Positions 18,907 through 38,086 of a stretch of DNA of 40,000 nt are shown in pieces. Source of the DNA: Halapricum salinum (GTDB lineage: Archaea; Halobacteriota; Halobacteria; Halobacteriales; Haloarculaceae). The stretch is taken from positions 200,887-240,886 of the forward strand of contig NZ_CP031310.1 in assembly GCF_004799665.1 (NCBI RefSeq), written 5' to 3'. The position numbers and the translations under genes were made by a program. The notes under the pieces are model-generated. The model was not told the DNA's origin. It saw only the letters and a list, made by a program, of their open reading frames with translations, and ran no database searches. Position 1 is the stretch's first letter. The number at the start of each line of letters is the position of its first letter.

Positions 18907-19010
18907 AACTTTGGAGTCTCTTTGTAGACTCCAAAGTTAAGGGCGTCCAGGCCAATAGCAGTATATAAAGAGGGTATCCCGAAATGAGCAGTCCTGCAAA
19001 CTCCAAAGTT
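18907..19010. promoter_or_regulatory. Perfect 13-bp inverted repeat plus a third half-site and a TATA box at the recombinase gene start
   Basis: aactttggagtct (18907-18919) and agactccaaagtt (18926-18938) are perfect reverse complements separated by 6 nt. actccaaagtt recurs at 19000-19010. A tatataaa box lies at 18962-18969. Confidence 0.55.
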
Positions 19011-25136: not shown

Positions 25137-26666
25137 TTACACTTTGTCTGCTAATTCGAGAACAGGGATCGTTTTCTTATTCTCATCCCCATACGTCACC
25201 TCGTTATTGCTGAAATCGAAGCGGATGGGTTTGCCGAGATAGGAGGACCGCTCGATCTTGGTCAAAGCGTCCAAGTCGCCGAGCTTCCAGCATATGAACC
25301 GGTCGATATGAGTCAGTGGAGTCTCATTTTCGAAGAAATCACTAAGCTTGACCTGTAGTGCTGCGTTCTTGTATCCCTCATCGGTGTCAACGATAGCATT
25401 AACCTCTTCGTCCAATCGGAAGTCCGCTATCTCAAGGGTCTCTGGTGATCCATTAGCGCTGTACCGTTCTAATGCTGCGATGACCTCTGCCGGATTCGAC
25501 GGGGAGAGTCCACCTTGGTCTTTGGTATGCTGGAGGCGTTCTTCGAGTGAGCTTCCCTGCGACTGGATGCTGCGTTGCTTGTTCTCCAGCTTGCGACGTT
25601 CGATATAGTTCCTGTACCAAGAATCTTGACACACTTTTGTCATATACCGATTCAGTTCATCAGTGATGGACTGGTAGACGTCGCCAGACTTGTTCCGAAT
25701 CTTCTCCCGGTTAGCAGAGAGTTCGAGGTCTTGGCAGTTTGCGATGAAGAAGAAGTGGAAGAACTCGTTGTCTGCTCCGATCGCATCGTTGTAGCGTTCG
25801 ACCTTGATGTGATCTTTCGCCAGCCAGATACCGAACTGTGCTGAGTGCTTACCATAGGTCGGCAGCTTATTCCGTGCTTCCTTTCCACCGACCATCCCCA
25901 CGACTTCGATCGTTAATTCGCGGCTATCGTCAAGGGTGACGGTCAGCTCACGGGGCGGGTAATGCTTGCACATTTCTTCCGCAACGAACTCGCCCTCTGG
26001 ATCCCGGTTTTCGGGCGGGAACTGTAGGCGGTTGTCGGTCTCAATCTGATCCTGGGTATCGTCGATTGTCGGCGACAACTCAACGTTGATGTCCATCTCG
26101 TGGAAGTCGTCGCCGAAGTGCCACGCGGTGGAGCCGCCGATCGTCTTCCATTTGATGTAGTGCTCAATCTTGTTGTAGGTAAGCTTTCGTGGGTCGAAAC
26201 CCTGACCAGCACGGAACCCATGTACTTCGATTCGGGTTCGGGACGGTTCGTCGCTCTCCGTCTCTTCGATGGAGTACGTGGGTAGTTCACGGTCGTTCAG
26301 TTTCGCCCACGGCTGGTCCATCACCGACTCAATCCGCGTCCCATCTGTGACTGTCTCAACCCGAATCTTGTCGCTTTTGTAGTAGATCTTGGTACCGTGG
26401 CCCTTGTATCCGATTGCGTCGTCCTTGTTGGAGTTCCCGAGATCGAAGAACGACGACAGGTCGTCTTCATCCATTCCATGGCCATCATCCTTGATGATGA
26501 GAGTGTTCCGTCCCTCGGCATCCTGCTCGATCTTGATATCGACCTGCGTCGCGCCTGCGTCGTAGGAATTGGATAGTGCTTCTCTGATAACTTCCAACGG
26601 GTCCTCGAAGTCGCTCGCTATCTCGATGAACTCGTTGACTTCGTTGACTTGTGGTGTCTTATGCAT
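25137..26666 (-). CDS. GHKL-superfamily ATPase (HATPase_c_3 / MORC-Hsp90-like N-terminus) with a large unknown C-terminal region
   Basis: The motifs are an N-box (VIREALSNSYDAGA), a G1 box (IIKDDGHGMD) and a G2 box (IGYKGHGTKIYY). Its ATG (26666) overlaps the stop of the upstream TGT-like gene (26659) by 8 nt. Confidence 0.8.
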   Translation of the reverse strand: MHKTPQVNEVNEFIEIASDFEDPLEVIREALSNSYDAGATQVDIKIEQDAEGRNTLIIKDDGHGMDEDDLSSFFDLGNSNKDDAIGYKGHGTKIYYKSDKIRVETVTDGTRIESVMDQPWAKLNDRELPTYSIEETESDEPSRTRIEVHGFRAGQGFDPRKLTYNKIEHYIKWKTIGGSTAWHFGDDFHEMDINVELSPTIDDTQDQIETDNRLQFPPENRDPEGEFVAEEMCKHYPPRELTVTLDDSRELTIEVVGMVGGKEARNKLPTYGKHSAQFGIWLAKDHIKVERYNDAIGADNEFFHFFFIANCQDLELSANREKIRNKSGDVYQSITDELNRYMTKVCQDSWYRNYIERRKLENKQRSIQSQGSSLEERLQHTKDQGGLSPSNPAEVIAALERYSANGSPETLEIADFRLDEEVNAIVDTDEGYKNAALQVKLSDFFENETPLTHIDRFICWKLGDLDALTKIERSSYLGKPIRFDFSNNEVTYGDENKKTIPVLELADKV

Positions 26667-27918
26667 AGGTTGTATCTGTTTCCTCGAAGTATGGATTAAT
26701 CCGTTCGTTGATCAGCTGGTAGGCGAACTTGCGGAAGCCTTTCTGGTCCTTCACGGCCTCCTCTAAATACTCAGCTACCCGTTCTTTGTCTGCCTCAGCG
26801 ATCAGTTGACGGAACTTGCGAAGTTCCCTTTGCTGAACCGCGAGATTGTGGGCTGCCACCGAGCCGAGGATGTCCTTCTGATACAGGTCGTCCATCTCGT
26901 TCCGCATCCGTGCTCGGTGGAAGTCGTCGTTACAGATCCGGCATTCACAGTCGTCGAAGTTCGCTTCATCTATCGGAACTGTCTCGAACAGGTTGACGCA
27001 ATACTTCCCGTTGATCGCTTGGTGTAGGTAGGAGGCAGAATCAAAGGTATCAGCCCCGACAGCAACGAGTAGCGGCATTGCGTTCCCCGAAATTCCTAAT
27101 ACGTGTAGAGGGAGGTCGTCATACCCTCGCTGTTGCATCTCCCGCTTACAGTCGGATACTGCTTCGACGAGAACCTCAACGTTGTCTTTTCGCGGTACGA
27201 GGCTACCTAACGCAATCCCATCGAACGCTTCAGGGATTGGTTCTGCAAGTTCGTCTTCAATGAGGTCGAAGGATCGTTCGAGCATCGCTTCATAATAGCC
27301 ATGCACTGTGAGGTAACAGGCCCCGTTAACCTCGTCACGACGCTCTGCGAACCGGGCAGCGTTGGCGGCTGTTTGCTCCATCTTTTCGATCCGCTCCTCG
27401 AACTCGTCATCTGGATGGATGGGGTGGTCCAAATTGACCACGATGTCTGGTCCTAAGTCTAGCTGTATGTCTAGCGCCTTATCCTGGTCAATATCCTTCT
27501 CGAAGTCCTCACCTTCTAGGCCACCCTGCTTTAGGATTTTGTAGCCGCCGGAGTCTGCGAAGATCATCCCGTCATAGTCGCTGAAACAGTCCCACTCGCG
27601 GATCTCGTTGTCGAGATACCATTCCAGCTTCTTCTCCCGAATCCCGTAGTCGGCCAGGGAGGAAATCGAAGTCATCACACCGTTGAAAAGGTCACTGTAG
27701 TCTTCACCACCGGTGACTTCGTTGTCGTGAGCAAGGAACTCCTTGATCGTACGGTGGACCCCGCCACCAAATAGCGCGCCCTCGTTACCGCCGCCGTAGA
27801 AGTTGATCACCGGGAACAGGTGTGGGGTTTCCAGGGTACGGTCATTAATCTGGAGCTGGCCACGTCGTGCCTCGCCTGCCTCCGCAACGACATCGAATGA
27901 GGCCATACTATCAGTCAC
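26659..27918 (-). CDS. tRNA-guanine-transglycosylase-family protein without PUA domain (DpdA-like candidate)
   Basis: The N-terminus is ArcTGT-like (ARRGQLQINDRTLETPHLFPVINF). The catalytic Asp motif is IFADSGGYKIL and the second Asp region is HVLGISGNAMPLLVAVGADTFDSASYL. The zinc motif is CECRIC (CxCxxC). The start is the GTG at 27918 or the ATG at 27906; either way it is within a few nt of the upstream stop (27911). Confidence 0.82.
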   Translation of the reverse strand: MTDSMASFDVVAEAGEARRGQLQINDRTLETPHLFPVINFYGGGNEGALFGGGVHRTIKEFLAHDNEVTGGEDYSDLFNGVMTSISSLADYGIREKKLEWYLDNEIREWDCFSDYDGMIFADSGGYKILKQGGLEGEDFEKDIDQDKALDIQLDLGPDIVVNLDHPIHPDDEFEERIEKMEQTAANAARFAERRDEVNGACYLTVHGYYEAMLERSFDLIEDELAEPIPEAFDGIALGSLVPRKDNVEVLVEAVSDCKREMQQRGYDDLPLHVLGISGNAMPLLVAVGADTFDSASYLHQAINGKYCVNLFETVPIDEANFDDCECRICNDDFHRARMRNEMDDLYQKDILGSVAAHNLAVQQRELRKFRQLIAEADKERVAEYLEEAVKDQKGFRKFAYQLINERINPYFEETDTTYA

Positions 27919-28372
27919 CGTGCACTGGAATGGAACGGCCGCTGGAAACCAAGTGCTTCAGCCGCTTTCCCTTCATTCCGATACCGGTGCCTTCGATATA
28001 GTCAACGGGTACATCAACGGCAGATTCAACCCCATCGACAGCTGGAAGATAGTCCTTTCCCAGATTGATCCATACGTTGTCATACCCGTTAGTAGTGACT
28101 TTGCTGGCAATAGCGCTGACGACTTGGTCGTTCAGTTCGTCAGCACGTTCTGTGTCCATCCGACGGTCATAATATCCAATTTCCTGATCAGGTTCCACTA
28201 CTCCGTGCTCCGCGGATATAATCATAATGTCAATTCCAGACTGAAATCGACCCGTGCGCAATGCCTTCTTTATAATCCTGAAGAAGTATCCATCGTACAA
28301 ATCGAGAGCAGGAACCGGTGTATCCACCTGTTCCTTCGTTGCAGAACACGATTGGACTAATAACGACGCCAT
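27911..28372 (-). CDS. Small conserved-looking protein, DUF6884-like (function unknown)
   Basis: MASLLVQSCSATKEQVDTPVPALDLYDGYFFRIIKKAL...IMIISAEHGVVEPDQEIGYYDRRM. The SCSxxK...PA..LY.G..F...ISA.hG pattern resembles DUF6884 and the Cys-Lys region of DUF5591. This is pattern memory only. Confidence 0.5.
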   Translation of the reverse strand: MASLLVQSCSATKEQVDTPVPALDLYDGYFFRIIKKALRTGRFQSGIDIMIISAEHGVVEPDQEIGYYDRRMDTERADELNDQVVSAIASKVTTNGYDNVWINLGKDYLPAVDGVESAVDVPVDYIEGTGIGMKGKRLKHLVSSGRSIPVHGD

Positions 28373-28455
28373 ATACTCTGCTGATCGTATGAGGAGACCT
28401 TAGTTCTTGGGGATAACCACTAGATGTCTGGAGGCTGGTTGGTTACGCGTTACCG

Positions 28456-30351
28456 TCAACTGGTAAACCGACCAACGAGCTCGTCGATATTTTCACTGCG
28501 GAAATGCTCGGTCAACTGAAGAGCTCGCGGATCAGATGGGTATATTTCACCGCGGCCATACCGGTTGAACGCCGTATCGATAGCACGTCGGTAGGCTTTG
28601 TTCGTGGTGTAGGCTATAATTTGGTCAAATTTCTCACCGTACCGGGTCAGGTAACGAGCAAGTCGGTTCGCAACAAGTTCAACTTGGTCGTCATCGGCAG
28701 TCGTCAATACATACTCGTAGCTCATCACCGGGTCAGCCTCTTCGAAGTCCTCAGGTACCGGCCCGTATAGCCCTGAGATGGACACCTTATGATATCGCTC
28801 ACGGTAGTCCTCAAGCCGGGAGAGGACAGCCTGATGTGTCCGTGACTTCGAATACGGCTTCTCCTGACTACAGGGTAGAATCAGTAGTACATCTGCCTCG
28901 CTCGGCGGCTGATACTCGTCGTGCTGGAGGATATCGAAGTCATTTGGCCCGTGTTTCAGCGAGATGGTCCGTTTCTTCCGTGTCGTGTCCTCGACTCCTT
29001 CGAGGAAGCTAGATAGCTTGGTCTGGAACGTCTCGTCATCCGGTCCGGCAACTAACCCTTCGTAACCGATGTCTGCAAGTTGTTCGCGGAGCTCTGGGTT
29101 GTGTAGCTGAGCCCGCTTCAACGCTTTCTCAACGATATTCTTTCCCTGTGCGAAGTTAGCAACACGTTCGAGCAAACTCCCATCATCAATGGCGTCACGA
29201 ACTTGTTGCATCTGGCGGCTGTACAGCTCAAAGTTATGATGAGCTATCTGTGCGTAGTATTCACTCTTGAAGTGAGTCCCGTGTTCACCCTCAATAGGCT
29301 TGTTACTGATATCGGATTCCAGAAGGGCGTGCCGCATATCACCGAAGTGGATGTTCTGGCAGGCTTGACAGTTACAGGGCCATTCCTCCCAATCATCAAT
29401 TTGGTCCAAACTGACTCGTTGCCAGCTATCGGGGTGGATGAATTTCTTATTGCGGGCCGCATACTGATAGCTTCTCGAATCAAACGTATCGACGCCGAGG
29501 AGAGACAGTAGAGGACAGAGCCTTCCGCTTATGCCGAAGACGTGGAATGCGATTTCGTCGTAACGGTCCTCGGGTATCGCGTCTCTTGCCCCTTGAACGA
29601 TATCGACCAAGGTATCTGGAGAGCTGCTGAGGGGAACAAGTGAACCCAGGGCGAACCCCTCGAAGGCCTCAGCAAGTTCATCGGCGCGGTCCAGAAATTG
29701 ACTGACATACCAGTTGACATCCTCGTAGTTGTGGCCGTGTATGGCCACATACATAGACGGCGTCTCCTCCAGCTCGCGCTCGTCGAGCAACTGGAGAGTT
29801 TCAACCGCGTTATCGATACTCTTCTCCATCCGTTCAGTGGTTTCTTGCTTATTCAGGTTCTGTGGAATCGGAAAGTCCAAGGTGGCAATGATATCCGCGC
29901 CGTAGTCAATCTGCAAGTCCAAGATGCTCTCTGGATTCGTGTAGATATCCCAGTCGTTCGCACTACCGCCTTCGTCAGGCGTCTGTCCGAACTTCGTCGA
30001 GTTCATCAACTTAAATCCGCCCGAGTCGATGAATAGCGGTTGATCAAACCCGGGCTCAACGTCACTCTCCTCGAAATGCTGTTTGAGCGGCTTCTCTCGC
30101 CACTCTTCCAGATTGTCAGGGGTGAGATTGTAGTCGAGAAACGACATCGCTTGGAACATAATCCCCTGGACGCTGTCGCTCTCAAAGAGGTGCCGACGGG
30201 TATACCGCCAGATACCACCGGATTCTGTTGTCGTCCCTCCAATCAAATTTACAACAGGTAGAAGCTCGGGCGTCTGGATACAGCCGGCGGGCGTGTCTAT
30301 TTCTCCTCGGCGGCCGTATGAAGCCTTTTCAAGAGTCTTGAATGCCGACAT
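28456..30351 (-). CDS. TGT-domain protein fused to an ArcS-type (DUF5591) domain; archaeosine-synthase-like paralogue lacking a PUA domain
   Basis: The TGT core is RRGEIDTPAGCIQTPELLPVVNL, LFIDSGGFKLM, FHVFGISGRLCPLLSLLGVDTFDSRSYQ, with zinc motif CNCQAC. The C-terminal domain has LLILPCSQEKPYSKSRTHQ, which fits PC-x3-KPY-x2-S-x2-H exactly. The ATG is at 30351; the track starts one codon earlier at a TTG. Confidence 0.82.
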   Translation of the reverse strand: MSAFKTLEKASYGRRGEIDTPAGCIQTPELLPVVNLIGGTTTESGGIWRYTRRHLFESDSVQGIMFQAMSFLDYNLTPDNLEEWREKPLKQHFEESDVEPGFDQPLFIDSGGFKLMNSTKFGQTPDEGGSANDWDIYTNPESILDLQIDYGADIIATLDFPIPQNLNKQETTERMEKSIDNAVETLQLLDERELEETPSMYVAIHGHNYEDVNWYVSQFLDRADELAEAFEGFALGSLVPLSSSPDTLVDIVQGARDAIPEDRYDEIAFHVFGISGRLCPLLSLLGVDTFDSRSYQYAARNKKFIHPDSWQRVSLDQIDDWEEWPCNCQACQNIHFGDMRHALLESDISNKPIEGEHGTHFKSEYYAQIAHHNFELYSRQMQQVRDAIDDGSLLERVANFAQGKNIVEKALKRAQLHNPELREQLADIGYEGLVAGPDDETFQTKLSSFLEGVEDTTRKKRTISLKHGPNDFDILQHDEYQPPSEADVLLILPCSQEKPYSKSRTHQAVLSRLEDYRERYHKVSISGLYGPVPEDFEEADPVMSYEYVLTTADDDQVELVANRLARYLTRYGEKFDQIIAYTTNKAYRRAIDTAFNRYGRGEIYPSDPRALQLTEHFRSENIDELVGRFTS

Positions 30352-30354
30352 CAA

Positions 30355-30494
30355 ATGACCTGTGTAGTAACTCTATCGTTGCCCTCAATTAACTTCTCGT
30401 TCTCTAAATTGTCATATCTCCAATCCATCTCCGGAGTCACTATAACTTTCAGCGAGTGGTTCAAAGTTAAGTATGCCACAGATAATACCACAGT
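30355..30494. promoter_or_regulatory. AT-rich divergent promoter region between the arcS-like operon and queDEC
   Basis: This is a 140-bp intergenic spacer. agttaagtat (30465-30474) is centred about 26 nt upstream of the queD ATG, consistent with leaderless geometry. ttaatt on the minus strand (about 30386-30391) lies 32-37 nt upstream of the arcS-like ATG. Confidence 0.4.
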
Positions 30495-30962
30495 ATGGCT
30501 CAAAACCTATCTGGAGAACACTCCCTCACATCAGAGGATATCTCCGAGGCTGAGCGAACCTTACACGTCGGACGTGACCGGCCGATTCGTCTAAGTACAG
30601 GTCACCGGATTCTACACCATGACGGCAAGTGCAGCCGTCCCCATGGGCATAACTACAAAATCAGCGTCTCGATAACTGGCACCCTAACCAGCGAAGGGTG
30701 GGTCATCGATAAGGGAGACGTCACTTCTGTATTATCCGAGTGGGATCACCGATTTCTCGTGGAGAAGGGCGATCCACTGATCGAGGCTTTTGAGGACAGC
30801 GGCGAAGGCGATGCCCTAATCGTGCTCGACCAGCCCCCGACAGCCGAGGTGATGGGGATCGTTCTTGAACGACGGCTGGAGGAAACATTACCGGAGACGG
30901 TCAGTAATGTCGCAGTTGAGGTTCGAGAAACCGGTGAGCTCGCTGCCGGAGGAGCTCTATAG
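30495..30962 (+). CDS. queD: 6-carboxy-5,6,7,8-tetrahydropterin synthase (QueD)
   Basis: LSTGHRILHHDGKCSRPHGHNYKISVSITG...GWVIDKGDVTSVLSEWDHRFL shows the PTPS/QueD Cys-His-His zinc/catalytic pattern. Confidence 0.88.
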   Translation: MAQNLSGEHSLTSEDISEAERTLHVGRDRPIRLSTGHRILHHDGKCSRPHGHNYKISVSITGTLTSEGWVIDKGDVTSVLSEWDHRFLVEKGDPLIEAFEDSGEGDALIVLDQPPTAEVMGIVLERRLEETLPETVSNVAVEVRETGELAAGGAL

Positions 30963-30966
30963 AGCA

Positions 30967-31749
30967 ATGCCGGTGAATTCGGATGTTCCAACGGTTGAGG
31001 AGGGTTCTACTGGTACAGAAACGAAGGACGGGCTGCCAGTGAATGAATTGTTCTACTCGTTACAAGGCGAGGGGAAAATCGCCGGGATGCCGAGCGTGTT
31101 CGTTCGGACGAGTGGTTGCAATCTCCGGTGCTGGTTCTGTGACTCGTTCCATACCAGCTGGGATCCGACCCACGCCTGGCTCGATGTCGATGCTGTCATC
31201 AATCGTGTCACCGATTATAAGAAAGCAAACCACGTCGTCGTGACCGGCGGTGAACCATTGCTACACGACGAGACGACCAATCTGTTAGACCGCCTCAGCG
31301 ATGCTGGCTACCATACTACCGTCGAAACCAACGGTACGATCTATCACGATACTTCCATCGATCTAGTGAGTATCAGTCCCAAACTGGCGAGCAGCACCCC
31401 GACTGCGGCAAAGGACCCACAGGGCGATGGGGAATGGGCAGATCGGCACGCTGATCGACGGATCGACATAGACACTCTCTGCCAGCTGGTGGAGGCCTAT
31501 GATTTCCAGCTGAAATTTGTAGTTACAGATAGAGATGATATGGCCGAGATCAACCGGTTAGTTGATCGGCTTCGGGACGCTGCAGATGCGGTGATTCGGG
31601 ATTCAGACGTTTTGTTGATGCCGGAGGGTTCGACCCGTGAACGATTATCGGAAACCCGTGAACTGACTGCGGAGGTAGCGATGGAGTACGGATATCAATA
31701 CACGCCTCGACTTCACGTTGAGCTCTGGAACGACGCACCCGAAACATAG
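30967..31749 (+). CDS. queE: 7-carboxy-7-deazaguanine synthase (QueE, radical SAM)
   Basis: LPVNELFYSLQGEGKIAGMPSVFVRTSGCNLRCWFCDS carries the CxxxCxxC cluster. It is followed by HVVVTGGEPLL. The ATG at 30967 is 4 nt after the queD stop; the track start at 30865 overlaps queD and is rejected. Confidence 0.88.
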   Translation: MPVNSDVPTVEEGSTGTETKDGLPVNELFYSLQGEGKIAGMPSVFVRTSGCNLRCWFCDSFHTSWDPTHAWLDVDAVINRVTDYKKANHVVVTGGEPLLHDETTNLLDRLSDAGYHTTVETNGTIYHDTSIDLVSISPKLASSTPTAAKDPQGDGEWADRHADRRIDIDTLCQLVEAYDFQLKFVVTDRDDMAEINRLVDRLRDAADAVIRDSDVLLMPEGSTRERLSETRELTAEVAMEYGYQYTPRLHVELWNDAPET

Positions 31750-32477
31750 TGTCAAATTATACAGCCATGACGACTACTCAAGGAGATAGCACGGATAGCG
31801 CGGTTGTCCTTGTATCGGGCGGGATGGATAGTGCGACTGCAGCTTTTGAGGCGAAGCACAGGGGATATGACTTGTACTTCCTCCACACAACCTACGGCCA
31901 ACAAACAGCGGACAAAGAGTCAGAGTGTGCCCGAGAATTGGCCGACTATATGGATGTCACGGACTTCCTTCACATCGAAACAGACCACTTAGCTCGGATC
32001 GGTGCTTCCAGCCTTACTGACGAGAACATCGATGTGGAAGAAGTCGATCTCGATAGCGATGAGATACCGTCAAGCTACGTTCCGTTCCGGAACTCGAACC
32101 TGCTATCAATGGCCACGTCGTACGCTGAAGCAAACGACTGTGGGGCCATCTTTATTGGTGCACACAGCGAGGATTACTCCGGTTACCCGGATTGCCGCCC
32201 GGAATTCTTTGATGCGTTCCAGCAGATTATAGATATCGGGACGAAACCAGAGACGTCAATCGATTTGGTGGCACCGTTCGTGGATTGGACGAAAACAGAG
32301 ATTGCGGAGCGTGGTCTAAATCTCGGTGTTCCGTACGAGCTTACGTGGAGCTGTTACCGCAATGAGGAACCAGCCTGTGGTACTTGCGATGCATGTGCCT
32401 ACCGACTCAAAGCATTCCAAGACGTAGGAATGAAGGATCCGATTAGATATCGAGAGCGCCCTAGCTACAGTGACTGA
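31749..32477 (+). CDS. queC: 7-cyano-7-deazaguanine (preQ0) synthase (QueC)
   Basis: The PP-loop is AVVLVSGGMDSATAA. The C-terminal zinc cysteines are WSCYRNEEPACGTCDACAYR. The GTG at 31749 overlaps the queE stop by 1 nt; the alternative start is the ATG at 31767. Confidence 0.88.
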   Translation: MSNYTAMTTTQGDSTDSAVVLVSGGMDSATAAFEAKHRGYDLYFLHTTYGQQTADKESECARELADYMDVTDFLHIETDHLARIGASSLTDENIDVEEVDLDSDEIPSSYVPFRNSNLLSMATSYAEANDCGAIFIGAHSEDYSGYPDCRPEFFDAFQQIIDIGTKPETSIDLVAPFVDWTKTEIAERGLNLGVPYELTWSCYRNEEPACGTCDACAYRLKAFQDVGMKDPIRYRERPSYSD

Positions 32478-32538
32478 TAAGACGTGAAGCTGTTTAAGAG
32501 GCAAACAATTCTTATTGGTGCGTCTTAGTGCTCATATC

Positions 32539-33012
32539 ATGGGCGAATTTGCGGACGAGGTCGTTAAGCGGTTGAAAGATCATTTAGCACAGTTCTGCAC
32601 ATCTTATAAGTGGGACACTGAATACCTTATTGCAGAAACACCAGTTGACATCGCAGGAATCGATGGTGATCGGTACGTGTTAATCGAACTCGAATGGCGT
32701 CGGGCGGACCCAGCTGACAATGCCGCGAAGATTTTTCGCCATCTCAGTACGAGGGAGATTCCTGCTGACCAAGTTATAATTTTGCAGTTATTTACCAACC
32801 ATTACAATCTCATTTCGGACGGCGTCTCGTCCAAGCGAAAGAACGCGGAATTCGTGGGCAAAACTGCCGCTGGTACTATTGACTATCTCACCTACCAACC
32901 CCTTGATTTTGACATCGATCCACCAAGATCGGGTGAGGAACGCCCCAACAAGTGGGAAGAGATAACTGATGATGTATCTGCAACAATCTCGTCAATAGTT
33001 AGTTGCTCCTGA
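32539..33012 (+). CDS. Hypothetical protein appended to queDEC (weak PD-(D/E)xK-like pattern)
   Basis: The ATG is at 32539 (MGEFADEVVKRLKDH...). The segment ETPVDIAGIDGDRYVLIELEWRR loosely resembles a D...ExK nuclease core. This is a weak resemblance. Confidence 0.45.
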   Translation: MGEFADEVVKRLKDHLAQFCTSYKWDTEYLIAETPVDIAGIDGDRYVLIELEWRRADPADNAAKIFRHLSTREIPADQVIILQLFTNHYNLISDGVSSKRKNAEFVGKTAAGTIDYLTYQPLDFDIDPPRSGEERPNKWEEITDDVSATISSIVSCS

Positions 33013-33066
33013 CGATGTATTGATTAACTCCTGTGTGAGTCTCCCTGAGGAACAGTGCTATACTGG

Positions 33067-33390
33067 TCAATCGGATTGATCACCAGTAAATTGGGCTTCG
33101 TTCTTAACTCTCCCAATTGCACCGTTCAGTCCATAAATAAGTGTAGCTGCGACATCGAAAGCTTCCCTCCGCTGGAGCTTTGAGATGGGCCTTGTTACAA
33201 ACTCTTCCCCGTCGGTATTGATACCGGTGATAGGAATCACTGAATAATCGTCGTCACCCATCGTTCCATCGAGCCGAACTAAGATCGTATCATCTTCGTC
33301 ATAAACCCATTCGATATAATAGTCGTCATGGATGTGCTCAGTCCATCCTGAAGGGTAATAATCGATATGCTCGGTTTCACTTTCAGGCAT
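33067..33390 (-). CDS. Hypothetical acidic protein
   Basis: The ORF is 107 aa from the ATG at 33390 (MPESETEHIDYYPSGWTEHIHDDYYIEW...). I recognised no family. Confidence 0.4.
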   Translation of the reverse strand: MPESETEHIDYYPSGWTEHIHDDYYIEWVYDEDDTILVRLDGTMGDDDYSVIPITGINTDGEEFVTRPISKLQRREAFDVAATLIYGLNGAIGRVKNEAQFTGDQSD

Positions 33391-33393
33391 CTT

Positions 33394-33428
33394 AGTATGT
33401 AAAACAGTGATTCCAAAGTATGTAAAAC
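33394..33428. repeat. Perfect 12-bp direct repeat agtatgtaaaac x2 (23-bp period)
   Basis: The copies are at 33394-33405 and 33417-33428, immediately upstream of the 33390 (-) start. On the minus strand they read GTTTTACATACT, which is TATA-like. Confidence 0.5.
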
Positions 33429-33539
33429 CGGTCGTCTGTCCTTCTGGTGTCGGGCTTCCAAGGATCAAATGTTAGAGTGAGAAATTTATTGACGACGAAC
33501 CGGGCAACATATCTACTGAAGATCACTCATATACTTCCT

Positions 33540-33980
33540 TCAAAGCCCTAATTCGACGTCTAAATACGTAGCTACGCTTCCGTACTCATTCTCCATAATT
33601 TCACAGAGCTCACGGTTGACCGTCAGACCGCTGTGAGTGATATTTGCAGATCCTACGTACACCAATTCGGGGCCCACGACGGCTTTCGCATGTAGATCAT
33701 CTACGGTAGTCATCGAGGTGTTTCCCATACGGGAGACAAGTGAGCGCATGTAGTCGTTGTGTTGTTCGCCAGTGCGAACGTAGAAATCGACATCCGTGTT
33801 CAATTCTCTAATCGCCGCGGACAGGGAAAGTCGGCGGCTCGACAATTTATCGGTGAGTGGAAAGCGCAGTTCCACATCGCTGAGCCAGGGCGAACAGATC
33901 GCCATACGTTGGGCGTGAACGAGAGAGTACCCGATAAAGTACGATAGCCCACTAGAGGGTAAAGAAAATGCTCGTACCAT
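33540..33980 (-). CDS. Phospholipase-D-family (HKD) nuclease, DrmC/Nuc-like
   Basis: VDDLHAKAVVGPELVYVGSANITHSG fits HxK...GSxN. The N-terminal AQRMAICSPWLS is typical of PLDc_2. The start (ATG at 33980 or GTG at 33989) overlaps the helicase stop (33952) by about 29-38 nt. Confidence 0.72.
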   Translation of the reverse strand: MVRAFSLPSSGLSYFIGYSLVHAQRMAICSPWLSDVELRFPLTDKLSSRRLSLSAAIRELNTDVDFYVRTGEQHNDYMRSLVSRMGNTSMTTVDDLHAKAVVGPELVYVGSANITHSGLTVNRELCEIMENEYGSVATYLDVELGL

Positions 33981-36900
33981 CGATCTCACCTCCTGGAAGC
34001 ATCTCTCGCTCGATCATTTGAGACGCGGCATCTTCGGAGGGAACTCTTTCGATCAGCATCTCTCGGAGACTTTCAAGCAAGACGTAGCTCAAGCTTTCCG
34101 ACTGGTCGTGTGCCGATATGCACTCCGCTAAGTGTAGATTCTCGACACAACCGTCGATATCCGGAGAGAAAAACAGGGATTTCACCCGATCAAGGTCTCC
34201 AACATCGTGTGGCATTTTTCTGACCGCATCAGCAGGGAATTCATTGTTGCCCGCTACCTGCTCTTTTGAGACGGTCTGTTTGATTCGGTATGCCGTTTCG
34301 GTTGAGATGCCTTCCTCACTCGAAAGCTGCCTAGCTCGATCAATCGAGGAGAGCACTTCATCCACGATCAGATCGGCGACATCGGGGAAGATCGGAGTTT
34401 CATCCATATCACGGACGACTTCTCGAACGGTGTGTTCGTCTGGGTCTTCCGGTATTCGTTCCACGAAACCCTCCGACGCCCAGAGTCTCTCGTTGATGAC
34501 CTGTGGATTATAGCAGATATGGGTCAGCGCGTTTAGTGCCGTACCCGGATCGGTCTGGAGGTCTTCGTAAACCAGATCAACGATGCCTTGGCCACCCTGA
34601 GACCGCTCAAACACATACACCTCGTCGGCTTCGTGATCAATCCCGTAGAAGAGCATACTTGGATTGACTCCGCCAATATCGGCGACCAACTGGGTGAAAC
34701 AGTGCGCCGCTGTATGCCGAGCCACTTCATTGAGTGATAACTCATTCAGCGACTTGTAGCGACGTACTCGTTTCTTAGTCTCTTCGTCAATGTCGGACAC
34801 GAAGTCGCTCAGGTCGAAAATCAACCCTCGGGTATCGAGCGAGAAACCCAAGGGCCGATTCCCGGTCGTGATTTCCTGAGAAATCCGATCCTCGCCGGTG
34901 AATATGAACTCATTTTCATCACCAACGGGTCGTGCCGGTGTGATTTCAAGGGATACTCCCGTGAGAGTTACTTTCCCAGTAATGTCAGCGAGGGTTGCTC
35001 TCCCCCGTGTCGCTTCCTCTTGACGCCCTTCAAGTCTAGTCTCTACTTCCGGGTTAGAATGGATTTTTCCGAACGCTCTATCGTTATGACGTAAGCACCG
35101 ATCCTCTTTAAGAATCTGGAAACACTCGGGACAGTACCTGACGATATTCAGAGCGCGACCGCCGCTGAGATCTTCTATATCGTCAAGAGTGATAGAGTCC
35201 GGAGTAATCATGCCGTCGCGCCGGTCACCGGGGACGTCCTCAAAGGAGAATCTGACCCCGTCATCATCAGCAATGGTTTCGGGTAGGTAGGCTTGCAAAT
35301 GACCTGCTTCTTGTTGATACTCGCTACGGTACGGAGCATAGGTCTGAACGAGTTTGTCGATAGACTGTTCGTCGCCACTCTCATCGTCCTCCCCATAGAA
35401 CACCGTGAAGTACTTCCCAGCGTCTTGGAAGTAGTTCGGGGGAACGTACCAGACGGTGCCTTCAAGCGAACGGTGGTCAACTTTCAGGAACCGGTCATAA
35501 TAATACGCCCCTCGAAGGAGATGCTTGACGTAGTACAGGCTCTTATCGTTCTGTTCAATAGAGTTGTATTCGCCGAGCTGAGTCAGCGTCTGTCTGAGAT
35601 AGTAGATCTGTTTACGCTTCGTTGCCGTCTTATCGAGCTCCTCGCTTTCAATCGCGCGGCTGGCTGTATCAACGCGGTCAACCACCTGATCAACGGACGT
35701 CGGCAGTTCTGGAAGGTTAACAGACACGTATTCTCGGTCAACGACACGCCGGAGTCTCTCGACGTCACTCGTTATCCCGTAGAGATCAGGGATCAGATCG
35801 TCTAATGCTTCGACTTGTTCAGTAGGCGGAGTTTCAGCGAGGTTTGTGACGGAGGTTCGAAGCTCTTCTAGAGTTGATTCCAAGGCATCGAGCTGTGATT
35901 TGACCTTCTCTTCGGTACTGACATCGGAATCTTCGATTTCGTCGATTAGCACTTGTCGCTGGCTACAGAATTCCAAGAAATCAGTTCTTATCTCTGAGAC
36001 TAGAGACCGAGCCAAGTCTTCTCTTTGCATAGACTGCCCAACCTGATCCTCGATGAGATCTGAAATCTCAGGCTGTGTCACGTCCTCCCTAAGCTCGGAC
36101 AGAACCTGATCTACAGTCTCAACCGGCTCCTCTCCATGTAATGCAGGGAGCTGACTCTCACTCACGTCAATTCCGAACTCTCGGCGCAATACAGCTGCAG
36201 GTTCCGTGATGAACTCGTAGTACTGTTTGTAGCCCAGTTCTGAACAAAGGAACTGTTCGAGGAACTCTTCCTTCCGGTCAATTGACCCAGAGAACCACTC
36301 TTTCGAGACAGCTGTTGATGTTTCGTAGAACTTCTCGAACTGGTCGTGGATCCAGGCAATCACGTGATTATCCGTCTTCAATGGCGTTCGGATTTCAGAC
36401 CCGAGGAAACGGTCGGCACGATAGAACATATTCGCGTCCTGAGTGAGATCCGAGAGGAATACGACAATGTGTGAGTCGGTGTCTTCCTTCCGCGCTGCTC
36501 GTCCCGCACGCTGAATGAATGACGACAGATCCCACGGCGTCCGATACTGCGTGACGATAGTGATCTCACCGACGTCAATCCCGACCTCAAGGAAGCTCGT
36601 CGAGAGCAGCAGGTCGCTCTCGGCTGTTGCAGCAGCGTCGAACCCAGCGTCTGAGTAGACAGATTCGAAGCGAAGTGAAGATTCAATGAAGTCGCAGTCC
36701 ATCTCCTTAGCTACCCGATCCCAGTTAGAGTAATCGCTTCCAGTTCTGTGATACCGCCAGAGTTCGTTTGCTCGATCAGCGTCCTCCAGTTGCGCCCTCT
36801 TTTGGTTCACTTGGCTTATACTGTCGATGAATGAGAGGATTTTCCCGCGCTCACCGGTCTCGCTGTTCAAGAGGCTATGTCCAAGCAACATCAACTGCTG

Positions 36901-38028
36901 GATGGCCATCGATGAGACCCCAGGACCTTCCTCCGACGTTTTGAGGAAGTAGTAGTGCTCCTTGTCCTCGTGGTCCGTTCGGAAATCGGAGTCAGGCGGC
37001 GCGACTGATTCAACTCGTCCACTTGGAACGGGAAAGAGATCAGTAGCAAATCGCTGTGGATCATCGACCGTCGCGCTTGAGCCTAGCCAGAGCAGCGAAT
37101 GGTCCGTTATCGCCTCGATATTTTGTGCTATATTTGCAGTATGTGCTCCTCTGAGCCCGGTGTACAGGTGGACTTCGTCGAATACAATCGTATCGGCCCG
37201 GTCAATGATGTTGTAGTTCGGTTTGAGTGAGAATAGCTCCAGAGATTCTAACGTCGTCAGAAGAATGTCCGGTCCAGGCTGATTTTTGATATCAGTCCGA
37301 TTAAGCAGGACCTCCCGATCAGAGAAGGAGTGTGCATCATTGTTCTCGCAAACCAGGCGGTAAGTCGAACTTCCTCCTTGGTAGGTGAATGAGTGAGTTT
37401 CGTCGTCTCCACACCAGCAATCGGCGAGCTTGAATCGACGCGTGCCATGCTGATTAGCAAAAAATGCGTCTTTCCTTTCAACCTCTGATGACGTATACGG
37501 TGTGTTGCTGGTCCATACCCCAACAGAAAGGCTAGTGTCGTGCTCTGTTCTAAGGTTGTACAAGTGTTCTAGAATCCGTCCGAGTTGGTCCTGTAGGAGA
37601 GCCCGACTCGGATAGACGACGATTGCCAAGTCCTGTTGATCTTCTGCTAACAGCTGATAGAGTGGGCCGAGAAACGCTTCTGTCTTTCCAAAGCCTGTGG
37701 GTGCCGAGAAAATCGCGCCACGCGAGTTGTTGGATGACCGTCGATCCGCATCGAGGTCGCGGATCAGTTGCCAGCTTTCGACCTGAAAGTCGAGTGGCTT
37801 GAAATCGAAGAGTTCGATGATGTCAGCAACGAACTGATCGTCACCAGTGTATTTACTCGTGGCTCGTCGATCCTGTGGCCTCTGTGTGTACTTGACACCA
37901 TCCGTGATGTAAGGAGGATTGTCTTGGTCAGCATCGAATATCTGGGTGTTTGAGAGAAAACCGCGAATCAGCGGTCGGATATCATCAGGGATTCGTGAGG
38001 CATTCGAGTTCCGATCAAAGTACTTCAT
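33952..38028 (-). CDS. Large DExH-box superfamily-2 helicase with a DUF1998 (MZB)-like C-terminal domain
   Basis: The helicase motifs are I (SAPTGFGKTEAF), II (VFDEVHLY), III (GSSATV) and VI (FIQRAGRAARK). The C-terminal region has CPECFQILKEDRCLRH, RHTAAHCFTQLV...VYVFERSQGGQGIVD and DIDGCVENLHLAEC. I prefer the ATG at 38028 to the TTG at 38064. Confidence 0.82.
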   Translation of the reverse strand: MKYFDRNSNASRIPDDIRPLIRGFLSNTQIFDADQDNPPYITDGVKYTQRPQDRRATSKYTGDDQFVADIIELFDFKPLDFQVESWQLIRDLDADRRSSNNSRGAIFSAPTGFGKTEAFLGPLYQLLAEDQQDLAIVVYPSRALLQDQLGRILEHLYNLRTEHDTSLSVGVWTSNTPYTSSEVERKDAFFANQHGTRRFKLADCWCGDDETHSFTYQGGSSTYRLVCENNDAHSFSDREVLLNRTDIKNQPGPDILLTTLESLELFSLKPNYNIIDRADTIVFDEVHLYTGLRGAHTANIAQNIEAITDHSLLWLGSSATVDDPQRFATDLFPVPSGRVESVAPPDSDFRTDHEDKEHYYFLKTSEEGPGVSSMAIQQLMLLGHSLLNSETGERGKILSFIDSISQVNQKRAQLEDADRANELWRYHRTGSDYSNWDRVAKEMDCDFIESSLRFESVYSDAGFDAAATAESDLLLSTSFLEVGIDVGEITIVTQYRTPWDLSSFIQRAGRAARKEDTDSHIVVFLSDLTQDANMFYRADRFLGSEIRTPLKTDNHVIAWIHDQFEKFYETSTAVSKEWFSGSIDRKEEFLEQFLCSELGYKQYYEFITEPAAVLRREFGIDVSESQLPALHGEEPVETVDQVLSELREDVTQPEISDLIEDQVGQSMQREDLARSLVSEIRTDFLEFCSQRQVLIDEIEDSDVSTEEKVKSQLDALESTLEELRTSVTNLAETPPTEQVEALDDLIPDLYGITSDVERLRRVVDREYVSVNLPELPTSVDQVVDRVDTASRAIESEELDKTATKRKQIYYLRQTLTQLGEYNSIEQNDKSLYYVKHLLRGAYYYDRFLKVDHRSLEGTVWYVPPNYFQDAGKYFTVFYGEDDESGDEQSIDKLVQTYAPYRSEYQQEAGHLQAYLPETIADDDGVRFSFEDVPGDRRDGMITPDSITLDDIEDLSGGRALNIVRYCPECFQILKEDRCLRHNDRAFGKIHSNPEVETRLEGRQEEATRGRATLADITGKVTLTGVSLEITPARPVGDENEFIFTGEDRISQEITTGNRPLGFSLDTRGLIFDLSDFVSDIDEETKKRVRRYKSLNELSLNEVARHTAAHCFTQLVADIGGVNPSMLFYGIDHEADEVYVFERSQGGQGIVDLVYEDLQTDPGTALNALTHICYNPQVINERLWASEGFVERIPEDPDEHTVREVVRDMDETPIFPDVADLIVDEVLSSIDRARQLSSEEGISTETAYRIKQTVSKEQVAGNNEFPADAVRKMPHDVGDLDRVKSLFFSPDIDGCVENLHLAECISAHDQSESLSYVLLESLREMLIERVPSEDAASQMIEREMLPGGEIDGTSIFFTL

Positions 38029-38086
38029 GCAGTCGATTTGTTGGAGATGGACACGATGCCGCAATCAATCTTTCCACGAGAGACGA

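What the first reader, a model, noticed from the sequence alone, without database searches (positions are those of the whole stretch)
28456..30351. ArcS-signature enzyme without a PUA domain: possible archaeosine-type (or preQ0-amine adduct) chemistry on DNA
Seen: a TGT-like N-terminal domain is followed by LLILPCSQEKPYSKSRTHQ. This matches, residue for residue, the PC-x3-KPY-x2-S-x2-H motif I recall as the archaeosine synthase (ArcS) signature. The C-terminus (…AYRRAIDTAFNRYGRGEIYPSDPRALQLTEHFRSENIDELVGRFTS) shows no PUA-like segment. Established: ArcS acts on preQ0 already inserted at tRNA position 15. In Euryarchaeota it forms a preQ0-lysine intermediate that a radical-SAM partner (RaSEA) converts to archaeosine. 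The only DNA archaeosine I know of (coliphage 9g type) is made by a different, Gat-QueC-type route. Inference: this paralogue may convert DNA-borne preQ0 to G+ or to a lysine/amine adduct. No RaSEA-like gene is in the window, since the only radical-SAM gene is QueE. The end product could therefore be a new hypermodified base or could depend on the host RaSEA.
Basis: partly seen in the sequence, partly recalled or inferred. Interest (0 to 1): 0.85.

Follow-up and report, generated by a model that had tools for sequence, protein, structure and literature searches.

The report
TGT–ArcS-core fusion in a DNA-modification island
A haloarchaeal genomic island encodes one protein that joins a complete guanine-exchange enzyme to the catalytic core of archaeosine synthase without its tRNA-binding parts; it probably marks the cell's own DNA with a 7-deazaguanine base for a restriction-type defence system, which has not been shown experimentally for any archaeal chromosome.

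Summary
Window 28456..30351 (-) encodes a 631-aa protein, 100% identical to Halapricum salinum WP_161569331.1. It has a full TGT domain, a disordered linker and a C-terminal ArcS C1 domain (DUF5591) with an exact PC-x3-KPY-x2-S-x2-H motif. It has no C2 or PUA domain.

- The protein is not the housekeeping ArcS or arcTGT; its NCBIfam scores are far below both cut-offs.
- Unlike canonical ArcS, its TGT domain keeps every catalytic and Zn residue, so it is probably the base-inserting enzyme as well.
- It lies in a low-GC, integrase-flanked island. The island also holds queD/E/C, a second TGT with a DpdC-like DUF6884 protein and a GHKL ATPase, and a DpdJ-like helicase with a DpdK-like PLD nuclease.
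- The same fusion sits in comparable defence contexts in 34 further haloarchaeal species loci and in bacteria.

Best reading: the fusion is the modification arm of a Dpd-like restriction-modification island. It would insert preQ0 into DNA and convert it to an amidine (dG+ or a lysine adduct). The product is untested. I rate it a new variant of a known kind.

The parts
28456..30351 (-). Fusion protein gene (631 aa from ATG 30351; the ORF also opens at TTG 30354): TGT domain, linker, ArcS C1 domain
29146..30315 (-). Complete TGT catalytic domain (aa 14-403). D110 in DSGG, D160, G237-P241 (GSLVP), D289/D292, C327-x-C329-x2-C332 and H373 are present. Most are invariant among 42 family members; the Zn-cysteine spacing varies between clades.
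28954..29043 (-). Predicted disordered linker (aa 438-467, pLDDT below 50)
28459..28953 (-). ArcS-type C1 domain (aa 468-632; Pfam DUF5591 match at aa 479-604); no C2 or PUA follows
28834..28875 (-). Motif PCSQEKPYSKSRTH (PC-x3-KPY-x2-S-x2-H), containing the CxxxK core shared with DUF6884 (CxxxK motif per PMC11701544)
30355..30494 (.). 140-bp intergenic region between the divergently oriented fusion gene and queD; probably a shared promoter region (inferred)
   Evidence: the same head-to-head arrangement occurs in L003, L009-L013 and L038
30495..30962 (+). queD (6-carboxytetrahydropterin synthase)
30865..31749 (+). queE (radical-SAM CDG synthase; the true start is probably downstream of the first possible start codon)
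31749..32477 (+). queC (preQ0 synthase; 188.8 bits, above the TIGR00364 cut-off of 150.3)
27911..28372 (-). DUF6884 protein (153 aa) with CSxxK and SAxxG motifs; DpdC/YaaA-related, candidate modifier of DNA-borne preQ0
26659..27918 (-). Second TGT paralogue (419 aa), 30% identical to the fusion's TGT domain, catalytic residues intact, weak DpdA match
25137..26666 (-). GHKL (HATPase_c_3) ATPase, 509 aa, ATP-binding boxes conserved; its ORF overlaps that of the second TGT by 8 bp
33952..38064 (-). DpdJ-like DEAD/ResIII helicase (1370 aa)
   Evidence: PADLOC DpdJ E 3e-53; NCBIfam DpdJ E 2e-50, below cut-off
33540..33989 (-). DpdK-like PLD-family nuclease (149 aa)
   Evidence: DpdK E 9e-12
38087..39977 (-). 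Two genes of unknown function (224 aa and 408 aa) upstream of the helicase; they recur next to the fusion in at least 11 other loci
32515..33468 (.). Two small genes of unknown function (165 aa on +, 133 aa on -) between queC and the nuclease; both recur in related loci
10873..12132 (+). Tyrosine integrase at the point where GC falls from about 65% to about 50%; probable left border of the island

Best explanation
The gene encodes the modification enzyme of a horizontally mobile, Dpd-like DNA restriction-modification island.

Proposed steps:
1. preQ0 is made by the island's QueD/E/C. GTP cyclohydrolase would come from the host, because no FolE was found in the window.
2. The N-terminal TGT domain exchanges guanine in double-stranded DNA for preQ0. 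This is inferred from intact catalytic residues and from loci where the fusion is the only TGT.
3. The tethered ArcS-type C1 domain attacks the nitrile of DNA-borne preQ0 and converts it to an amidine. The product would be 2'-deoxyarchaeosine, or a preQ0-lysine adduct if it works like Thermococcus ArcS. This is inferred from homology to ArcS and to phage ArcS2. By analogy with tRNA, this step would also stop the transglycosylase from removing the base again.
4. The modified base marks self DNA. The DpdJ-like helicase and DpdK-like PLD nuclease (other helicases in other loci) attack unmarked incoming DNA. This is inferred from the bacterial Dpd system.

The adjacent operon of DUF6884, second TGT and GHKL ATPase is a second, optional module that parallels bacterial DpdC, DpdA and DpdB. 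It may make the amide form (dADG).

What is shown: domain content, motif conservation, gene neighbourhood and its recurrence. What is inferred: substrate, product and the restriction role.
For: Anatomy:
- TGT plus DUF5591, no PUA.
- The catalytic Asp, substrate Asp, Zn site and GSLVP segment are present, and most are invariant in 42 family members.
- The C1 motif core (P, C, S, K, P, Y, S) is invariant.

Not housekeeping:
- NCBIfam ArcS 126 against a cut-off of 440; TgtA 113 against 350.
- Hutinet 2019, Supplementary Data 3: Haloarcula vallismortis has a dpdA (peg 1029) beside queE, folE and queC (pegs 1031-1033). It also has separate arc-tgt, arcS and queCDE genes elsewhere.

Context in the window:
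- queD/E/C are divergently adjacent to the fusion.
- DpdJ-like helicase (E 3e-53), DpdK-like nuclease (E 9e-12), DpdC-like DUF6884 protein, second TGT with a weak DpdA match, and a GHKL ATPase.
- Integrase and a GC drop at the border.
- No phage hallmark genes.

Recurrence:
- 34 haloarchaeal species loci, one of them on a plasmid, and one Poribacteria bacterium. Three further haloarchaeal-type loci (L001-L003) came from separate look-ups.
- The DUF6884-TGT-ATPase triad accompanies the fusion in 30 of 36 haloarchaeal loci; que genes in 14.
- Loci where the fusion is the only TGT within 10 kb sit next to giant helicases, or next to a PLD-SNF2 helicase and an Eco57I-type methylase.
- In metagenome locus L071 the fusion is followed by DpdJ-like (27% identity) and DpdK-like (30%) genes and a YhhQ-type (Vut_1) transporter gene.
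- The island is 93-99% identical at protein level between Halapricum, Halorubrum and Halorussus, which indicates recent transfer.

Precedent:
- nt-1 ArcS2, a C1-only protein, makes dG+ in DNA together with DpdA2. It is a top structural match of the C-domain model (E 1.8e-6, TMq 0.63).
- Thermococcus ArcS needs no tRNA architecture and acts even on the preQ0 nucleoside. preQ0-Lys blocks reverse exchange by ArcTGT.
Against: - There are no biochemical or mass-spectrometry data for this family.
- The PUA domain is dispensable for arcTGT activity, judging by the title of Sabina and Soll 2006 in a reference list. Its absence alone does not exclude RNA substrates.
- The NCBIfam DpdA model does not hit the fusion at all and hits the second TGT only weakly (27 bits against a cut-off of 200). 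Both paralogues are closer to arcTGT than to any other solved TGT.
- A second intact TGT accompanies the fusion in 30 of 36 haloarchaeal loci, so which paralogue inserts the base is open.
- Published ArcS2 results are equivocal. nt-1 ArcS2 gave only 4-7 dG+ per 10^6 nt, and STSV2 (DpdA plus ArcS2) contains dCDG, not dG+.
- The last His of the motif is Gln in many close relatives, and one family member (P0057) lacks the Zn cysteines.
- Triad genes further than 10 kb away could not be excluded in the 'fusion-only' loci.
Confidence: 0.6

Rival explanations
1. Division of labour: the 419-aa TGT, helped by the GHKL ATPase, is the only enzyme that inserts preQ0 into DNA. The fusion's TGT domain serves only to flip out and hold the inserted base for the C1 domain, as the TGT-like N-domain is thought to do in canonical ArcS.
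For: The DUF6884-TGT-ATPase triad accompanies the fusion in 30 of 36 haloarchaeal loci. The triad mirrors DpdC, DpdA and DpdB, and bacterial DpdA needs an ATPase. Canonical ArcS also carries a TGT-derived N-domain.
Against: The fusion keeps all TGT catalytic and Zn residues under strong conservation, whereas none of 39 canonical ArcS representatives keeps DSGG. Fusion-only loci exist in haloarchaea, in a second archaeal lineage and in bacteria.
Confidence: 0.15
2. The C1 domain acts on DNA but does not make an amidine. It hydrates or hydrolyses the nitrile to the amide (dADG) or the acid (dCDG), or it has some other role, so no archaeosine-type base is formed.
For: STSV2 encodes DpdA and an ArcS2 with an intact motif, yet its DNA holds dCDG and no dG+. 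The C1 fold and its CxxxK motif are shared with the YaaA/DUF6884 superfamily, to which published work assigns the nitrile hydratase DpdC. Hutinet 2019 already suggested that phage ArcS might act as an amidohydrolase. The final His is replaced by Gln in many relatives.
Against: The one ArcS2 tested gave dG+. The window's C1 domain is much closer to canonical ArcS C1 (92 bits) than nt-1 ArcS2 is (31 bits). A separate DpdC-like protein is already encoded next door, which would make an amide-forming C1 redundant.
Confidence: 0.15
3. The protein is a one-polypeptide arcTGT plus ArcS acting on tRNA or another RNA: a mobile back-up or variant archaeosine pathway carried by the island together with its own que genes.
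For: Its best solved-structure match is arcTGT. The PUA domain is not required for arcTGT activity (reference title). ArcS accepts minimal substrates.
Against: Scores are far below both equivalog cut-offs. C2 and PUA are both absent. Distribution is patchy and horizontally transferred, including a plasmid. The same architecture occurs in a bacterial genome (Candidatus Poribacteria) beside a PLD-SNF2 helicase and an Eco57I-type methylase; bacteria are not known to put archaeosine in tRNA (own knowledge). A related metagenome locus pairs it with DpdJ- and DpdK-like genes. It is consistently linked with helicases and nucleases. Another haloarchaeon that carries a dpdA beside que genes keeps separate arc-tgt and arcS genes.
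Confidence: 0.08
4. The TGT-like enzyme attaches a 7-deazapurine to a protein rather than to a nucleic acid, as reported for Cap10 in type IV CBASS.
For: A 2025 preprint shows that a TGT-family enzyme in a defence system can carry out nucleobase-protein conjugation.
Against: No CBASS components were identified in the window (family scans). QueC here is a bona fide preQ0 synthase, above its equivalog cut-off. The partners are Dpd-type helicase and nuclease proteins. The TGT pocket residues are those of base-exchange enzymes.
Confidence: 0.02

Closest known systems
Archaeosine synthase ArcS (alpha subunit; tRNA preQ0-15 to preQ0-Lys/G+; Euryarchaeota)
   Same: Homologous C1 domain (DUF5591) with the exact PC-x3-KPY-x2-S-x2-H motif (92 bits against a canonical C1 HMM); a TGT-derived N-terminal part; the substrate is presumably a preQ0 nitrile already in a polynucleotide.
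   Different: No C2 or PUA domain. The N-domain is a complete TGT with catalytic residues, which canonical ArcS representatives lack (DSGG 0 of 39). The score is far below the NCBIfam cut-off. No RaSEA partner is linked. It lies in a mobile defence island rather than among housekeeping genes.
ArcS2 of Vibrio phage nt-1 and Sulfolobus virus STSV2 (PMC10516641)
   Same: PUA-less ArcS C1 core encoded beside a DNA transglycosylase and preQ0 genes; a top structural match (nt-1 ArcS2, E 1.8e-6); dG+ formation on DNA has been shown for nt-1 ArcS2.
   Different: ArcS2 proteins are small stand-alone viral proteins (185-226 aa) used for counter-defence. Here the C1 domain is fused to the transglycosylase and is encoded in cellular genomes and a plasmid. 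The window's C1 belongs to its own clade (195 bits to the fusion-type HMM; viral ArcS2 score 21-47).
Bacterial Dpd restriction-modification system (DpdA/B/C with DpdD-K; Salmonella Montevideo)
   Same: TGT-family enzyme plus an ATPase plus a YaaA-superfamily nitrile modifier; preQ0 genes in the island; DpdJ-like helicase and DpdK-like PLD nuclease; mobile island with patchy distribution.
   Different: Archaeal host. The TGTs are arcTGT-like and below the DpdA cut-off. The ATPase is of GHKL type, not ParB-like DpdB. The DpdC analogue is DUF6884 rather than DUF328. No significant match to DpdD-I was found among the island ORFs scanned. An extra TGT-C1 fusion is present that has no counterpart in described Dpd clusters.
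Archaeosine tRNA-guanine transglycosylase (arcTGT/TgtA; 1IQ8)
   Same: Best solved-structure match for the catalytic domain; arcTGT-like 'G-x-V/L-V-P' segment consistent with preQ0 as substrate.
   Different: Only about 19% identity. It lacks C2 and PUA, its C1 is of the ArcS type, and it scores below the TgtA cut-off.
YaaA / DUF6884 / DpdC superfamily
   Same: The C1 model matches phage YaaA and DUF6884 proteins (E 3.5e-5 to 1.9e-3). The CxxxK motif and an S-(A/G)-x-x-G motif align.
   Different: The relationship is remote: hhalign E 0.0012 with only 19.6% probability, and HMM scores are not significant. The chemistry of DUF6884 proteins is unknown.

Membership tests
ArcS (archaeosine synthase alpha, tRNA) | C1 domain with the PC-x3-KPY-x2-S-x2-H motif | tested here: met
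   Exact motif at aa 494-507; Pfam DUF5591 E 1.7e-19; 92 bits against a canonical ArcS C1 HMM; fold match to 2q07
ArcS (archaeosine synthase alpha, tRNA) | C2 and PUA tRNA-binding domains after C1 | tested here: not met
   Only 28 residues follow the DUF5591 match; no PUA hit. Models end with the C1 domain. Canonical representatives have about 270-300 residues after the motif, against about 140 here.
ArcS (archaeosine synthase alpha, tRNA) | Score above the NCBIfam equivalog cut-off (NF040592) | tested here: not met
   126.2 bits against a cut-off of 440
ArcS (archaeosine synthase alpha, tRNA) | Radical-SAM partner RaSEA | tested here: not met
   No radical-SAM candidate other than QueE in the window or in 39 related loci, by CxxxCxxC scan. 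A host RaSEA elsewhere in the genome was not testable.
ArcS (archaeosine synthase alpha, tRNA) | Converts preQ0-tRNA to preQ0-Lys/G+ | not testable with these tools
   Needs biochemistry
ArcS2 (viral DNA archaeosine synthase) | DUF5591 core without PUA, encoded with a DNA transglycosylase and preQ0 genes | tested here: met
ArcS2 (viral DNA archaeosine synthase) | Stand-alone small protein of a virus | tested here: not met
   Here the C1 domain is fused to a 430-aa TGT domain, in a cellular island without phage hallmark genes
ArcS2 (viral DNA archaeosine synthase) | Produces dG+ from dPreQ0 in DNA | not testable with these tools
   Needs LC-MS/MS
DpdA (DNA 7-deazaguanine transglycosylase) | TGT fold with catalytic Asp residues and Zn site, lacking the tRNA-binding C2 and PUA domains | tested here: met
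DpdA (DNA 7-deazaguanine transglycosylase) | Sequence membership (NCBIfam NF041059, PADLOC DpdA) | tested here: not met
   The fusion has no DpdA hit. The 419-aa paralogue scores 27.3 bits against a cut-off of 200, and PADLOC E 2.7e-6.
DpdA (DNA 7-deazaguanine transglycosylase) | Clustered with preQ0 synthesis genes and DNA-directed helicase and nuclease genes | tested here: met
Dpd restriction-modification system | DpdB ParB-like ATPase and DpdC (DUF328) | tested here: not met
   No significant ParB-like/DpdB or DUF328 hit among the island ORFs scanned. A GHKL ATPase and a DUF6884 protein take the corresponding gene positions.
Dpd restriction-modification system | DpdD-K restriction genes | tested here: inconclusive
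   DpdJ-like (E 3e-53, but 171 bits against a cut-off of 800) and DpdK-like (E 9e-12) genes are present. No significant match to DpdD-I was found among the island ORFs scanned.
arcTGT (TgtA) | Equivalog score and the C1-C2-PUA tail | tested here: not met
   113.4 bits against a cut-off of 350; no C2 or PUA

The most novel reading that the evidence does not exclude
Haloarchaeal chromosomes, and some bacterial ones, that carry this island hold a 7-deazaguanine amidine in their own DNA. The base would be deoxyarchaeosine, so far reported only in virus DNA and in plasmids from E. coli expressing phage genes, or a preQ0-lysine adduct left unprocessed because no RaSEA is linked, which would be a new hypermodified DNA base. 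A single bifunctional 'insert-and-lock' enzyme would write it. Where the DUF6884-TGT-ATPase module is also present, the cell would use two different deazaguanine marks (amidine and amide) for self-recognition.
Probability: 0.25. Interest if true: 0.85.

Novelty: new variant of a known kind. Interest (0 to 1): 0.62.

Why it matters
1. Scope. In the papers I could search, 7-deazaguanine DNA modification is established for bacterial Dpd islands and for viruses. An archaeal cellular system has been noted only in passing, as a 'DpdA homolog' in Haloarcula vallismortis, with no experiments.

2. Testable prediction. This window shows a compact, transferable archaeal and bacterial variant whose writer fuses the transglycosylase to the ArcS catalytic core. 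It predicts an archaeosine-type base in the genomic DNA of cultured haloarchaea (Halapricum, Haloarcula, Halorubrum, Natrinema). One LC-MS/MS run would test it.

3. Open questions it bears on. What do PUA-less ArcS cores really make on DNA? The published nt-1 and STSV2 results do not add up. How does a TGT work on duplex DNA without DpdB? Are ArcS C1, DUF6884 and DpdC one superfamily of nitrile-modifying, base-flipping enzymes?

4. Practical consequences. Such marks block many restriction enzymes and would be relevant to haloarchaeal genetics and virus-host studies.

Tried and rejected
- tblastn of the full protein against phage records found only generic TGT-domain hits. A second search with the C-domain alone was needed to find viral ArcS2.
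- The search for homologous proteins with the C-domain returned only 11 fragments and no canonical ArcS. The exhaustive representative search was used instead.
- The original Dpd paper (PMC4801273) and the original ArcS paper (PMC2857094) are not held.
- Cluster look-ups gave no taxonomy for the non-halophilic family members.
- Pfam, NCBIfam, PADLOC and PHROGs gave nothing significant for nine island ORFs.
- No tRNA gene was found that could mark an integration site.
- I considered that the island is a provirus and rejected it for lack of any viral hallmark gene.
- I considered that the 165-aa ORF after queC is FolE and rejected it, as there is no GTP cyclohydrolase match.
- I could not show that H. 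vallismortis EMA11768 is the fusion protein. The 95%-identical Haloarcula protein comes from another strain, so that link rests on gene order only.
Full report
OBSERVATION

The minus-strand ORF 28456..30354 (TTG) has an ATG at 30351, which gives the 631-aa protein that NCBI annotates. The protein is 100% identical to 'tRNA-guanine transglycosylase' WP_161569331.1 of Halapricum salinum, so the window is part of that 3.45-Mb chromosome.

Pfam finds a full TGT domain at aa 14-403 (profile positions 3-353 of 357, E 1.6e-28) and DUF5591, the ArcS C1 domain, at aa 479-604 (E 1.7e-19). It finds nothing else. Window 28834..28875 (-) reads PCSQEKPYSKSRTH, an exact PC-x3-KPY-x2-S-x2-H.

An AF2 model (pLDDT 80) shows three parts: a TGT barrel with a helical extension, a disordered linker at aa 438-467, and one alpha/beta domain that runs to the C-terminus. 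Modelled alone (pLDDT 86.6), that domain has one significant PDB match. The match is AF0587 (2q07), which by my own knowledge is the C-terminal half of a split ArcS. It scores E 1e-6 over 146 alignment columns against the 270-residue target. In detail: a real ArcS C1 domain with no C2 or PUA.

WHAT THE PROTEIN IS NOT

It is not the housekeeping ArcS or arcTGT. It scores 126 bits against the ArcS equivalog (cut-off 440) and 113 bits against TgtA (cut-off 350).

It is also not simply 'ArcS minus PUA'. The alignments to Z. mobilis TGT and P. horikoshii arcTGT line up all of the following:
- the nucleophile Asp in DSGG (D110);
- the substrate Asp (D160);
- an arcTGT-like GSLVP segment;
- D289/D292;
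- the Zn motif C327-x-C-x2-C332;
- H373.

Most of these residues are invariant among 42 family members.

I searched 1.84 billion cluster representatives with the C-domain and looked at the best 150:
- 39 have this architecture, with DSGG present and C1 at the extreme C-terminus;
- 39 are canonical ArcS, with about 270-300 residues after the motif, and none of them has DSGG;
- 36 are short C1-only proteins or fragments.

The fusion's C1 forms its own clade (195 bits to a fusion-type HMM). It is still clearly homologous to canonical C1 (92 bits, E 6e-29), and more so than the experimentally tested nt-1 ArcS2 (31 bits).

NEIGHBOURHOOD

GC falls from about 65% to about 50% at a tyrosine integrase gene (10873..12132). 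A second, shorter integrase-family ORF lies at 18984..19601.

The fusion gene and queD-queE-queC are divergently arranged around a 140-bp spacer.

Downstream of the fusion, three ORFs that overlap each other by 8 bp encode:
- a DUF6884 protein (153 aa, motifs CSxxK and SAxxG);
- a second TGT (419 aa). It is 30% identical to the fusion's TGT domain (E 2e-49), its catalytic residues are intact, and it has a weak DpdA match;
- a GHKL ATPase with conserved ATP-binding boxes.

Beyond queC lie two small genes of unknown function, a DpdK-like PLD nuclease (E 9e-12), a DpdJ-like 1370-aa helicase (PADLOC E 3e-53; NCBIfam DpdJ E 2e-50, below the cut-off), and two more genes of unknown function. No phage hallmark gene was found. 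This is a defence-type island, not a recognisable provirus.

COMPARATIVE GENOMICS

A scan of one genome per GTDB species found the full-length family in 34 haloarchaeal species. One locus is on a Halorubrum plasmid. One further locus is in a Poribacteria bacterium, at 35% identity over the whole length. With three loci from separate look-ups, the set compared was 36 haloarchaeal loci plus the bacterial one.
- The DUF6884-TGT-ATPase triad is next to the fusion in 30 of 36 haloarchaeal loci, and que genes in 14.
- The DpdK-like nuclease is present in 8 of the 36 haloarchaeal loci, each also with a DpdJ-like match. Other loci carry about 1580-aa DEAD/MZB helicases or AAA_11/12 helicases instead.
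- In six haloarchaeal loci and in the bacterial one the fusion is the only TGT within 10 kb. One of these (L003) has queD-queE-folE-queC beside it. The bacterial one follows a PLD-SNF2 helicase and an Eco57I-type methylase.
- A non-halophilic metagenome contig has the fusion, a DpdJ-like gene (27% identity), a DpdK-like gene (30%) and a YhhQ-type (Vut_1) transporter gene.
- Another archaeal contig pairs a 741-aa fusion with the GHKL ATPase and an AIPR gene.
- The island is 93-99% identical at protein level in Halorubrum sp. CBA1125 and Halorussus sp. AFM4, which shows recent horizontal transfer.
- No radical-SAM candidate other than QueE occurs in any of the 40 loci.

LITERATURE

- Bacterial Dpd: DpdA with the ATPase DpdB inserts preQ0 into DNA, DpdC converts it to dADG, and DpdD-K restrict (PMC10164549).
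- Viruses: PUA-less ArcS cores were renamed ArcS2. nt-1 DpdA2 alone gave 926-1607 dPreQ0 per 10^6 nt. With ArcS2, dPreQ0 fell to 0-11 and dG+ appeared at 4-7. STSV2, with DpdA and ArcS2, contains dCDG instead (PMC10516641).
My own inference is that the nt-1 mass balance leaves room for an undetected product.
- Thermococcus ArcS transfers lysine even to the preQ0 nucleoside, and preQ0-Lys cannot be exchanged back by ArcTGT (PMC11298593).
- Hutinet 2019 lists a 'DpdA homolog' in H. vallismortis (peg 1029) beside queE, folE and queC (pegs 1031-1033), with separate arc-tgt, arcS and queCDE genes elsewhere. Host DNA was not analysed. By gene order this is probably the same kind of island, but I could not verify it.
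- Pfam's 2024 paper describes DUF6884 as a YaaA-related, DNA-binding, base-flipping fold with CxxxK and LSAxxG motifs (PMC11701544). Published work assigns DpdC to the YaaA family, DUF328 (PMC12839542).
- My C-domain model matches nt-1 ArcS2 (E 1.8e-6), and then phage YaaA and DUF6884 proteins (E 3.5e-5 to 1.9e-3). A profile-profile alignment puts C1's CSxxK and SGLYG on DUF6884's CSxxK and SAEHG, but the score is weak (E 0.0012, probability 19.6%).
- I found no paper that describes the TGT-C1 fusion.

MECHANISM

Best reading, confidence about 0.6: the fusion is the writer of a Dpd-like restriction-modification island.
1. The TGT domain swaps guanine in DNA for preQ0, made by the island's QueD/E/C.
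2. The tethered C1 domain converts the nitrile to an amidine: dG+, or a lysine adduct. By analogy with tRNA, this also locks the base in.
3. The helicase and PLD nuclease attack unmarked DNA.
4. The DUF6884-TGT-GHKL operon is an optional parallel module analogous to DpdC, DpdA and DpdB, and may make dADG.

Domain content, conservation and linkage are shown. Substrate, product and restriction role are inferred.

RIVALS
- Only the 419-aa TGT inserts the base, and the fusion's TGT domain merely presents it to C1 (0.15).
- C1 makes an amide or an acid rather than an amidine (0.15).
- The target is tRNA or another RNA (0.08).
- The enzyme conjugates the base to a protein, like Cap10 (0.02).

CAVEATS
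- The absence of PUA does not by itself exclude RNA substrates.
- The fusion is not hit by the DpdA models.
- The final His of the motif is Gln in many close relatives, and one member (P0057) has lost the Zn cysteines.

VERDICT

This is a new variant of a known kind: a Dpd-type 7-deazaguanine DNA-modification system in which the ArcS core is fused to the transglycosylase. The prediction can be tested directly by LC-MS/MS of DNA from cultured haloarchaea.

Noticed in passing
window 25137-28372 (-): The ORFs for a DUF6884 protein, a 419-aa TGT and a GHKL ATPase overlap one another by 8 bp. The three genes occur together next to the fusion in 30 of 36 haloarchaeal loci. By gene content they mirror bacterial DpdC, DpdA and DpdB, but with unrelated ATPase and hydratase-like families.
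   Followed up: partly
A1 alignment, positions 318-345 and 494-507 of the fusion protein: The Zn motif is CxCxxC in the window's clade but Cx4CxxC in the roughly 50%-identity clade, and it is missing altogether in P0057 (locus L003). The last His of the ArcS motif is Gln in many close relatives.
   Followed up: partly
L041 9953-11899 (Candidatus Poribacteria) and L071 10001-11920 (metagenome): The same TGT plus C1 architecture occurs outside archaea. In L041 it is next to a PLD-SNF2 helicase and an Eco57I-type methylase. In L071 it is next to DpdJ-like and DpdK-like genes and a Vut_1 (YhhQ-type) transporter gene.
   Followed up: partly
L009 and L010 compared with window 25137-39977: Thirteen island proteins are 74-99% identical between Halapricum, Halorubrum sp. 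CBA1125 and Halorussus sp. AFM4, with most at 93-99%. The fusion also occurs on plasmid p1 of Halorubrum xinjiangense (L038). Together these indicate recent inter-genus transfer.
   Followed up: partly
PMC10516641, Table 3 (literature): Co-expressing nt-1 ArcS2 with DpdA2 removes about 99% of dPreQ0 but yields only 4-7 dG+ per 10^6 nt, so most of the product is unaccounted for. HVTV-1 DNA grown on H. vallismortis, a host with a dpdA beside que genes, carries traces of dADG and dG+ of unexplained origin (PMC6884629).
   Followed up: no
window 32515-33012 (+): The 165-aa ORF after queC has no family match. It contains a D...ELEW-R stretch that resembles a PD-(D/E)xK nuclease motif, and it recurs in at least 8 related loci.
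   Followed up: no
window 38087-39977 (-): Two ORFs of unknown function (224 aa and 408 aa) upstream of the DpdJ-like helicase recur with the fusion in at least 11 loci, including some that lack DpdJ/K. The 408-aa protein has only a non-significant DpdH similarity (E 0.055).
   Followed up: partly
window 10873-19601: This stretch holds a 419-aa integrase at the GC break, a second 205-aa integrase-family ORF, an HxlR-type regulator, an archaeal ATPase_2/DUF234 protein and a 724-aa ORF with no significant family match (one marginal transposase hit, E 0.08). No tRNA gene or attachment repeat was identified, and the right end of the island lies beyond the window.
   Followed up: partly
L001-L003, L024, L032, L035, L037: In loci without DpdJ/K, the fusion sits beside a helicase of about 1580 aa (DEAD, Helicase_C, C-terminal MZB zinc domain). 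In L001-L003 this helicase is followed by conserved genes of about 305 aa and about 277 aa, and L001 and L003 also carry an AAA_11/12 helicase of about 1450 aa. These look like alternative effector modules.
   Followed up: no
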